DNA of 64,000 nucleotides. It comes from Eledone cirrhosa. Taxonomy: Eukaryota. Below are positions 19,901 to 22,900 of the stretch, piece after piece. Every line of letters starts with the position of its first letter. Within the stretch, counting starts at the first letter, position 1. The translations under genes were made by a program, and so were the position numbers. The notes under the pieces are model-generated. The model searched no databases. It was not told the DNA's origin and saw only the letters and a list, made by a program, of their open reading frames with translations. The stretch lies in NCBI GenBank assembly GCA_964016885.1, contig OZ024742.1, positions 223,820,001 to 223,884,000 on the forward strand, written 5' to 3'.

Positions 19901-22900
19901 CCAAATTAAACATAGCATGCTTCGCTTTTGCACCTACTTCTCTTCTTCTAATGAACAAATGCTGAAGCTGGCTCATTACTACACCAGCTCTTGCAATTAA
20001 TTCAGCTTCCTGCTTTCCATCACTCATGAAAACAGCCCAAGATACTTGAACCTGCGTCAATGGAACTCCACTCACATGTAGAGTGCAATGCACAGTCTTC
20101 CTTGAGAAAAAAAGTGTCTGTCTTCACAGCACCAATTTTTATTCCTGCCATGCAGCACTTGGCAGCAAACCTATCAAGTGTATGTCAGAGATCACCTTCC
20201 GATGAGTTAAATAATTGTTTCTACTTTTGGCACAAGGCCAGCAAATTCCCCAGTGCATTACTGGTACTTTTATTTTATCGACCCCGTAAGGATGAAAGGC
20301 AAAGTTAACCTCGGCGGGATTTGAACTCAGAATAGCAAGTCGTCTGTAAATTCTGTTCATATATCAAAGTTAATGTTACTTTGGAAACATTTATTAGTCA
20401 CAATATATTTCGAATGTACCATCTATTATCAAAGGATCTGTTGGGAACCTCGTAAAATGGTGGAGGGATCTTTTTATGCCTCTGTTTGGCTCGTGTTGGT
20501 GTCAGAACTGATTTTTGTTTCTCTTCCACTTCTCCACTCAATTTCACTTCGCTTATCTCATTCCTCACTTGATTTACAAACCTTACCTGCATTATAGCGG
20601 CTTCCAAGACATATATCTATATATCATCATCATCATCGCTTTTCCCTGCTTGCAAGGGTGGCACAGGAACTGATTCTGGCTTGATTTCTACAGCTGGATG
20701 CCCTTCCTAACAACAACCTCATTTACAGTGAGTGCTGGGTGCTTTTTTTCCATGGCGCCTACACGTCCACTTTACAGTGTGGGCAGGATGCTTTTTTTTT
20801 TTTTTGCCGTGGCACCTCCATGACCACTTTGCAGTGGAATGATGGGAACCCCAGTCCTATCGTCTCCTTTCTGCACCTGAGTAAACTGGAACAATGTGAA
20901 ATAAAGTGTCTTGCTCAAGGACACAACACATCACCCGGTCTGAGAATTGAACTCACAACCTTTCGATTGCAAGGCCAATGTTCTAACCAATATATATATA
21001 TATATATAGAAGTGGTTACACAACAGTTAGTTCACCATACCGAGAACAATTGTTTCACCTTAGCGGATCCTCAGCTCGTAATGGACCATTACGAGCTGAG
21101 GATCCGCTAAGGTGAAACAATTGTTCTCGGTATGGTGAACTAACTGTTGTGTAACCACTTCTACCTAACTCGTCCCATGGACTGAGTGCTCTACCACTAC
21201 GCAGATATTACCTTCCAGTGTTCTGCCACTATATATATATATATATATCTCGTTTGGTCCGGAGCAGATTTGTATAGCACTTCCGCATAACACCAATTTT
21301 GCCACTGACTAACTAATTGTGTTCGTTCTGAATTACCAACTTGCACCTCAGAAATGCAAGTTCCATAAAAACATTGAGCAAATGGAAAATTCAGCGGGCT
21401 AGCACAAATTCAATTTGTCTAATTCGTTATACTTATATATATATATATAATTAATTACAACAGTGACATATACAGGTACTTAACTAATTATACTTAACTT
21501 GTACTATGGATTGAGTGCTCTTACCCTTGGATATTTGTACCAAACTTGTACTACAGTGTATGTGTGTGTATATATATATATATATCATCATCATCATCAT
21601 CATCATCATCATCATCATCGTTTAACGTCCGTGTTCCACGCTTGCATGGGTTTAGACGGGGGTTTTCCCACTTGAGGCAAGAGTGGTTGTCTTGCTCGCA
21701 TAGGACTGTCTGGCGGGTTTTCTACAGCTGGATGCCCTTCCTAACACCAACCACATTTACAGTGTGGGGCTGGGAGGTTTTTACCGTGTTGCCTACACGG
21801 CCACATTACAGCGTGGACTGTCTGGCGGGTTTTCTACAGCTGGATGCCCTTCCTAACACCAACCACATTTACAGTGTGGGACTGGGAGGTTTTTACCGTG
21901 TTGCCTACACGGTCACATTACAGCGTGGACTGTGTGTTTTTTTGTGGTGACACCTACACGATCTCGTTTGTTTCGGCCTGGATGTTGTGGCACCAACATA
22001 ACTTTGCATTGAAGGGGGCGGTGTGGATGGGGTGGGACGGGGGTGTATTTTGTTAGAGATGCCTACTGACTAGTAGGTTTTACTTTGTATTTAGGTAAGG
22101 CGGGTCTTCTCTGTTACTGAGTACCGCCAAAGGTCTTGGTCCAGTGACATTGTCTTGGAGAGGTGTAAGTGTATAAGGTCGGAATTTATCAGCTCGTCCC
22201 AGGTTTTCCTGGGTCTGCCTACTCCGTGGCTACAATCTATCTTTATTGCCCTGCACTTTGTTATACAGCTGTCGTCTTTATATATATATATATATATATA
22301 ATGTATAATTATGTATTGTTTTGTCTCCAGATGATAAAATTCCCATGTTTCCTCGTATTTTCATCTGGGTTGGAATGATTGTTGCAAGTTACACAATGCT
22401 TCGACTTATCAGTGGAACCGATTCCAGTGTGTACCATTTCATCTCTTGGAATGAATTCTATCATGATATGTTGGCAAAAGGTGAGGTAGGTACCTACTAT
22501 TTCTTCTTTTATTTCTTTTATTCTTTTACTGGTCTCAGTCATTGGACTGTGACCATACTGGGGCACCACTTTGAAGGAAGTTACTCAATCATATCGACCA
22601 CCAATATTTAAAAAAATGTTCAAGTCTGGTATTTAATTTATTCCATCTCTTCATTAAAACACGGACATAAACACAAATACACAAATACACAAACGTAAAC
22701 ACACACACACATGTATATATGTCTACACAGTAAAGTGGATGTGTTAGTATCACGACAAAGAGTGCCCAGTCCACACTGTAAAGTGGTCGTGTTGGTGTCA
22801 CAATAAAAAGCACCCAGTCCATACTGTAAATGTGGTTGGCCTTAGGAAGGGCATCCAACCATAGGAACCAAACCAGAAACAGTTTGGTATGAACAAGATA

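What the first reader, a model, noticed from the sequence alone, without database searches (positions are those of the whole stretch)
21007..21163. Perfect 157-bp palindrome carrying head-to-head hammerhead-like ribozymes in SPG7 intron 3
Seen: exact 78-bp arms with a 1-nt centre, embedded in (TA)n. Each arm holds CUGAGGA..GAAAC-AAUU-GUU with a 4-bp stem I (CGAG/CUCG), predicting cleavage after 21125. Known: Penelope-like elements carry minimal type I hammerheads with palindromic stem III loops in their terminal repeats and often leave inverted repeats. Inference: this is a young ORF-less PLE product. In the SPG7 pre-mRNA the sense ribozyme would be sequestered by its own antisense arm, forming a 78-bp dsRNA that could be an ADAR or Dicer substrate. 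Stem II is only 2 bp closed by U-U, so activity is uncertain.
Basis: partly seen in the sequence, partly recalled or inferred. Interest (0 to 1): 0.75.

Follow-up and report, generated by a model that had tools for sequence, protein, structure and literature searches.

The report
Penelope (Hydra-clade) mini-palindrome in SPG7 intron
This is a short back-to-back stump of a Penelope-like jumping gene that has thousands of copies in this octopod genome, a known kind of insertion product; across the family many stumps stop at one base with an extra G, which likely marks the capped start of the RNA that was copied.

Summary
The palindrome is real (78+1+78 nt) and lies in coding intron 3 of SPG7. 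The element is larger: the right arm runs on for a 68-nt tail to 21231 before (TA)n. It is a stump of a Penelope-like element with Hydra-clade protein motifs. The genome holds 2226 exact matches to its ribozyme 32-mer and 188 palindromes of this kind. Arms begin at two fixed points (unit 78 and 144), the inverted pLTR plus tail pattern in print. The U·U flank of stem II is common in Hydra hammerheads (14 of 26 rows); only the 2-bp stem is unusual. The two ribozymes lie on opposite strands, so one transcript carries one, predicted to be buried in the hairpin. Family-wide, 19% of arms stop at base A3, with a non-family G in 53 of the first 100 listed, likely a copied cap. This copy lacks that mark. 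No pile-up at the predicted cut site. Cleavage, transcription and editing are untested. The scan reported the same reading earlier for other DNA of this genome. Ordinary locus, modest mechanistic value.

The parts
20991..21006 (.). Left (TA)n target tract; the next TA is shared with the arm end
21007..21085 (-). Inverted arm: unit positions 78 down to -1 of the PLE pseudo-LTR (unit 1 = 21086)
   Evidence: the central A is the complement of the family's T at -1
21041..21078 (-). Minimal type I hammerhead motif, copy on the minus strand
   Evidence: mirror of 21092-21129
21086..21163 (+). Direct arm: unit positions 1-78 of the pseudo-LTR
21088..21088 (+). A3: family-wide stop point with extra 5' G, candidate capped transcription start (this copy reads 2 to 3 nt past it)
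21092..21129 (+). Minimal type I hammerhead motif, sense to SPG7: stem I CGAG/CUCG (extension to 21086-21135), core CUGAGGA, U-CC-GCUAA-GG-U, GAAA, palindromic helix III, GUU with predicted cut after 21125
21164..21231 (+). Tail (unit 79-144, with a 2-nt insertion at 21202 rare in the family); in full-length copies this is the 5' leader that runs on to the ORF
21232..21248 (.). Right (TA)n target tract
18945..22330 (+). Host intron: third coding intron of SPG7 (paraplegin)

Best explanation
This is an ORF-less, head-to-head stump of a Hydra-type Penelope-like retrotransposon inserted in (TA)n, likely made when both nicked target strands each primed a short cDNA on the element's uncleaved sense RNA, one from each of two fixed start sites (unit 78 and 144), and the two cDNAs were joined near the RNA's 5' end. 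Shown: family membership, the two fixed arm ends, the tail's identity with the 5' leader, the stop peak with extra G at A3. Inferred: twin priming, the cap origin of the G, an uncleaved template. The hammerhead is a passenger that probably serves the parent element (as a dimer or with protein help); here it is predicted to be locked in a 78-bp hairpin and to have no function for SPG7.
For: Family: 40 of 40 scored candidates (of 487) at 96-100% identity; 2226 exact 32-mers. ORF link: the unit follows an RT+EN ORF in L033/L045 and precedes the ORF in 15 of 25 loci found with the ORF's 5' end. Ends: 43 arms end at 77-79 and 66 at 142-144, of 121 (loci chosen by similarity or pattern). 17 of the 30 best loci carry an inverted 78-arm within 1.5 kb. 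Raw DNA reads of two other samples show the 78-end followed by (TA)n (1134 and 1269 reads). Either arm can be the longer: 78-arm in L008, L015, L016, L018, L020, L036; 144-arm in L004, L030, L040. A cDNA folding back from 78 cannot supply 79-144. In vitro, a Poseidon PLE cuts and extends both strands from two internal RT starts that bound the tail, on mainly unprocessed RNA (PMC11167929, parts 1-2 of 4 read). Stops: homology starts at T4 in 216 of 2716, at A3 in 474 of 2500, at C2 in 184 of 2026. The preceding base is G in 12, 53 and 28 of the first 100 listed (p 6e-10 and 5e-4; hand counts), and in 13 of 100 one base further up, where only A/G were searched. All 18 G arms among 30 inspected are truncations, not substitutions. 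An untemplated 5' G is attributed to cap copying for L1/SVA (PMC3287187, passages). Arms share 50 variants against 12.9 expected (crude).
Against: This copy has no extra G and its arms reach unit 1 and -1, past A3, so the run-off reading fits the family better than this locus. About 3 of the 18 G cases could come from microhomology with the other arm (L093, L096, L102). Palindromes also centre elsewhere: 71 upstream and 123 inside the ribozyme. 307 arm differences are on one arm only, and within-locus divergence was lower than between-locus in only 26 of 40 (3 not computable), so a single template molecule is not shown. Rfam finds no hammerhead at E<=10. Stem II (2 bp) is shorter than in all 26 Hydra rows (minimum 3 bp), and the monomer's active fold is 4.7 kcal/mol above its best fold. 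No read or contig was shown to bridge this locus to its unique flank.
Confidence: 0.7

Rival explanations
1. Same PLE origin, but the inverted arm arises by self-priming or fold-back (on antisense RNA as proposed for rotifer PLEs, or on the first cDNA), and stops near A3 reflect stalling at the ribozyme's stem I.
For: Proposed in PMC3846280 (passages). Many arm pairs end within a few bases of each other; most palindromes centred in the ribozyme join at the self-complementary helix III; shared arm variants exceed chance.
Against: The 78-arm is often the longer one, and the other arm carries 79-144 that it lacks. Stalling does not predict a G-specific extra base at one position. Both arms carry the extra G at some loci (L097/L098).
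Confidence: 0.2
2. The hairpin or ribozyme acts on SPG7: it is edited or diced, or it cleaves the pre-mRNA.
For: Sense orientation inside an intron; predicted hairpin of -174 kcal/mol for 20990-21250.
Against: One of hundreds of such young insertions; about 1.2 kb from the nearest exon; the antisense arm is made first and would capture the ribozyme arm (inference). No locus-specific conservation shown.
Confidence: 0.07
3. Assembly fold-back artefact at this locus.
For: Arms are 100% identical and no locus-bridging read was seen.
Against: The asymmetric 78/144 design with (TA)n on both sides recurs at many loci with diverged arms. The same centre junction is listed at 3 other loci among the first 50. 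Short-read contigs span such centres.
Confidence: 0.03

Closest known systems
Hydra clade of C-terminal EN+ Penelope-like elements, e.g. Hydra-1_Obim (Craig et al. 2021, PMC8557442; passages, section 11, supplement part 2 of 59 and search hits read)
   Same: DKT, RWx, CxCX5C, CxxC and CxH motifs; about 2.55 kb unit; (TA)n targets; hammerhead often U..U-flanked with U at the cut site; inverted 5'-truncated copy and tail.
   Different: A different family from Hydra-1_Obim (protein clearly related by eye, ribozyme sequence unrelated; the ribozyme 13-mer searched is not in that supplement). Tail is 66 nt against 30-40 nt in the paper. Stem II is 2 bp.
PAc (Poseidon, Anolis carolinensis) in vitro system (Frangieh et al. 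2024, PMC11167929; parts 1-2 of 4 read)
   Same: Two internal RT start sites bounding the tail, AT-rich target, both strands extended, hammerhead not needed for insertion.
   Different: Other clade; there the ORF starts inside the hammerhead, here about 250 nt downstream. The parts read report no capped 5' end footprint and do not explain inverted arms.
Minimal PLE hammerheads (Cervera & de la Pena 2014, PMC4209133; parts 1-2 of 4 read)
   Same: Conserved core, short stem I, extra base after A9, palindromic helix III; opposite-strand pairs 100-700 bp apart were already noted; low activity even as dimers.
   Different: Their motifs have long helix II and a conserved G10.1-C11.1 pair; here 2 bp between two U.
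Animal non-LTR retrozymes (PMC7229834, abstract start in listing; bioRxiv 10.64898/2026.07.22.740005, passages)
   Same: Short, ORF-less, type I hammerhead, PLE-related.
   Different: No tandem monomers here; the stump is continuous with an ORF-bearing element.

Membership tests
EN+ Penelope-like elements | Single ORF with RT and C-terminal GIY-YIG-type endonuclease, bounded by pseudo-LTRs in partial tandem | tested here: met
   RT motifs and a C-terminal YVG/CxxC/CxH region in copies joined to the unit; unit precedes the ORF in 15 of 25 loci. Pfam gave no RT or GIY-YIG hit on the two L045 pieces, so this rests on motifs.
EN+ Penelope-like elements | Inverted 5'-truncated copy and tail on one end only | tested here: met
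Hydra clade | DKG changed to DKT; RWK motif | tested here: met
   DKT in 21 of 28 loci; RWR/RWQ rather than RWK in 22 of 28 (2 of the 28 hold only the 3' part)
Hydra clade | CxCX5C linker; CxxC and CxH in EN | tested here: met
   CxCX5C in 14 of 28 loci, many of which stop short of it
Hydra clade | Length under 3 kb, (TA)n insertion, hammerhead present | tested here: met
   about 2.55 kb; flanks
Hydra clade | Phylogenetic placement; absence of CCHH and GxKF/Y motifs | not tested
   no tree built, motifs not scored
Minimal type I hammerhead | Core C3-A9, G12-A15.1, U16.1-H17, stem I of 4 bp or more, palindromic helix III | tested here: met
   the second subfamily differs at N7 and in loop II and gains a stem I pair
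Minimal type I hammerhead | G10.1-C11.1 closing pair and helix II of 3 bp or more | tested here: not met
   U..U around 2 bp; U..U is in 14 of 26 Hydra rows but none has under 3 bp; no Rfam hit
Minimal type I hammerhead | Self-cleavage as dimer or with protein | not testable with these tools
   folding only: dimer in active form -26.2 against best -30.4 kcal/mol with the same stems I and III
Non-LTR retrozyme | Tandem monomers with canonical hammerhead, no ORF-bearing parent of the same sequence | tested here: not met
microRNA precursor | Rfam gathering score | tested here: not met
   hits are generic hairpin matches below gathering

The most novel reading that the evidence does not exclude
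The family's stumps are a genomic footprint of PLE replication: capped sense RNA starts at A3, at the 5' edge of the hammerhead, is copied uncleaved from two start sites onto both ends of one (TA)n break, and the copied caps are preserved at the joint. Long copies that read past A3 would then need tandem read-through or circular RNA.
Probability: 0.55. Interest if true: 0.55.

Novelty: new member of a known kind. Interest (0 to 1): 0.3.

Why it matters
The locus itself is one of hundreds of like insertions and matters little. The family statistics bear on an open point: which RNA strand and form PLEs copy and how head-to-head ends arise (left open in PMC3846280 and PMC8557442; partly addressed in vitro in PMC11167929). 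They give a base-exact prediction for the transcription start. Searches for a PLE cap footprint or twin priming found no such paper, but Lünse et al. 2017 was not held and subscription papers are not searched.

Tried and rejected
No RNA holder listed for the region, so expression, editing and small RNAs are untested. Read laying was swamped by repeats and gave no locus-bridging record and no empty-site joint; read ends at 21048/21119 and loose ends at 21122 fall on an AATT and are probably RAD restriction ends (inference). Cleaved RNA as template: only 1 of the first 50 of 88 palindromes has both arms ending at unit 41, and one more has one arm there, so no support. Fossil A-to-G editing: none of 182 arm alignments has 3 or more A>G changes, one has 3 T>C (sample biased to near-identical copies). 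Splicing as the source of the extra G: no shared upstream exon in 18 G arms. Within-family conservation per position is uninformative because the family is young and the anchors were selected. In one search, 45 of 120 held loci were left out (20 duplicates, 25 ORF-query loci). Lünse et al. 2017 was seen only through a review passage (PMC6765202). Only one paper's supplement was opened (PMC8557442, in part); supplements of PMC4209133 and PMC11167929 were not read and bioRxiv supplements are closed, and these may hold octopus hammerhead or start-site data.

Full report
Observation. The arms 21007-21084 and 21086-21163 are exactly complementary around one base. Proteins closest to a nearby exon are cephalopod paraplegins at 84-88%, and tblastn with them places coding exons at about 4672-4988, 17769-17850, 18875-18944 and 22331-22488, with canonical splice sites at the boundaries checked. 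The palindrome is therefore in coding intron 3, with the right arm sense to the gene. Only the left arm touches (TA)n; the right arm runs 68 nt further. I number the unit from 21086 = 1.

Family. A search of the own genome with 21086-21232 gave 487 candidates; the 40 scored were 96-100% identical. An exact 32-mer over the ribozyme occurs 2226 times. Head-to-head pairs with a spacer of 30 nt or less occur 188 times when anchored at unit 5-15, 71 times anchored upstream and 123 times anchored at 36-46, with 0 for each reversed control. Longer copies extend upstream into an ORF with RT motifs and a C-terminal endonuclease-like region. In 15 of 25 loci found with the ORF's 5' end, the unit including the tail lies just upstream and runs on through a leader to the ORF. 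This is the partial-tandem pLTR-ORF-pLTR-tail plan. DKT, RWR/RWQ, CxCX5C, CxxC and CxH motifs, the 2.55 kb length and (TA)n targets match the Hydra clade as defined in PMC8557442. Pfam did not recognise the two L045 pieces and I built no tree.

Architecture. Of 121 arms in 75 loci, 43 end at 77-79 and 66 at 142-144; both ends read ..CTA followed by (TA)n. 17 of the 30 best loci have an inverted 78-arm within 1.5 kb. Raw reads of two other samples confirm the 78-(TA)n junction for the family. Inverted truncated copies and one-sided tails are described for PLEs, and for a Poseidon element the tail is the stretch between two RT start sites, with both target strands cut and extended. Here either arm can be the longer. 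Where the 78-arm is longer, fold-back of one cDNA cannot make the other arm's 79-144, so two priming events are the simpler reading. Shared variants between arms (50 against 12.9 expected, 307 one-arm) lean to a common source but do not show one RNA molecule. This copy is one of 5 of 40 pairs with no arm difference, which points to youth, though hairpin-driven homogenisation could also do it.

Where arms stop. With a fixed anchor, homology starts at T4 in 216 of 2716 arms, at A3 in 474 of 2500 and at C2 in 184 of 2026; 1842 read through both C. The foreign base is G in 12, 53 and 28 of the first 100 listed (hand counts; Fisher p 6e-10 and 5e-4), against about 17% G in the loci, and 13 of 100 at the next position up where only A/G were asked. 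All 18 G arms among 30 inspected are truncations; about 3 could be microhomology. An untemplated 5' G is attributed to cap copying in L1/SVA. I infer a capped start at A3. The window copy does not carry this mark: its arms reach 1 and -1, and the same centre is listed at 3 other loci among the first 50. It may come from a slightly earlier start or from read-through RNA. There is no pile-up at unit 41, the 5' end a ribozyme cut would leave, and most arms read across that site, so the template was uncleaved or re-ligated.

Ribozyme. All core bases are present; helix III lies in a 10-nt self-complementary stretch; stem I may extend to 8 bp. Rfam finds no hammerhead. In the Hydra table of PMC8557442, 14 of 26 rows have U on both sides of stem II and 10 of 26 cut after U, but none has under 3 bp in stem II. 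Other families in my loci also show U..U. The second subfamily differs at N7 and in loop II and gains a stem I pair, a weak sign of selection. The monomer's active fold scores -7.5 against -12.2 kcal/mol, with helix III pair probability under 0.02; a dimer's best fold has the expected intermolecular stems I and III. PLE minimal hammerheads cleave poorly even as dimers, and the Poseidon one needs protein. At this locus one transcript holds one sense ribozyme downstream of its own antisense copy, in a hairpin predicted at -174 kcal/mol, so cleavage of SPG7 pre-mRNA is unlikely. A dsRNA substrate for ADAR or Dicer is plausible and untested.

Earlier scan notes. After stating my reading I found notes on other DNA of this genome that reach the same model, including the capped start, and name the Hydra clade; a look-up by sequence found none for this unit. 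They are AI notes, not independent support; the clade lead I tested myself.

Verdict. Real, and explained as an ordinary stump of a new Hydra-type PLE family. Interest 0.3, resting on the family-wide cap footprint.

Noticed in passing
window 53193-53263: Second perfect palindrome (31-bp arms, 9-nt loop) with a decayed hammerhead-like core (U-CCC-GUUAA-GGG-U stem II), likely a stump of another PLE family; related sequence flanks L029 and L082.
   Followed up: partly
window 6436-6487: Palindrome with 21-bp arms and a 10-nt loop, no hammerhead core seen.
   Followed up: no
window 62286-63740, minus strand: Fragments of another Penelope-like element (weak RVT_1 hit, E 0.009) with a pLTR-like end holding a degenerate hammerhead-like core; a palindrome of the same repeat lies in L045 at about 4060-4505.
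   Followed up: partly
window 21481-21521: Old relative of the unit's 67-107 stretch, 80% identical, near another (TA)n.
   Followed up: no
L045 3960-4005 and 6950-7001: The host sequence on the two sides of the insertion cluster is an inverted repeat of about 45 nt, as if the target end was duplicated in reverse.
   Followed up: no
flanks of L029, L039, L041, L050, L064, L071, L085, L089, L092, L099, L100, L103, L105: Many unrelated minimal hammerhead motifs with palindromic helix III and G-C, G-U, A-U or U-U at the base of stem II.
   Followed up: partly
G000:C1:143.34-143.79 Mb: Nine same-strand copies at about 47-60 kb spacing, suggesting a large tandem segmental repeat.
   Followed up: no
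unit 106-114 and 136-144; L019 2303-2374: A 9-nt AC-rich word occurs twice in the tail, once at the 144 end; one arm ends at 115, a possible minor start site.
   Followed up: no
window 15958-16189 and 21703-21933: Two near-identical 112-nt tandem dimers of a common interspersed repeat, 5.7 kb apart in SPG7 introns.
   Followed up: no
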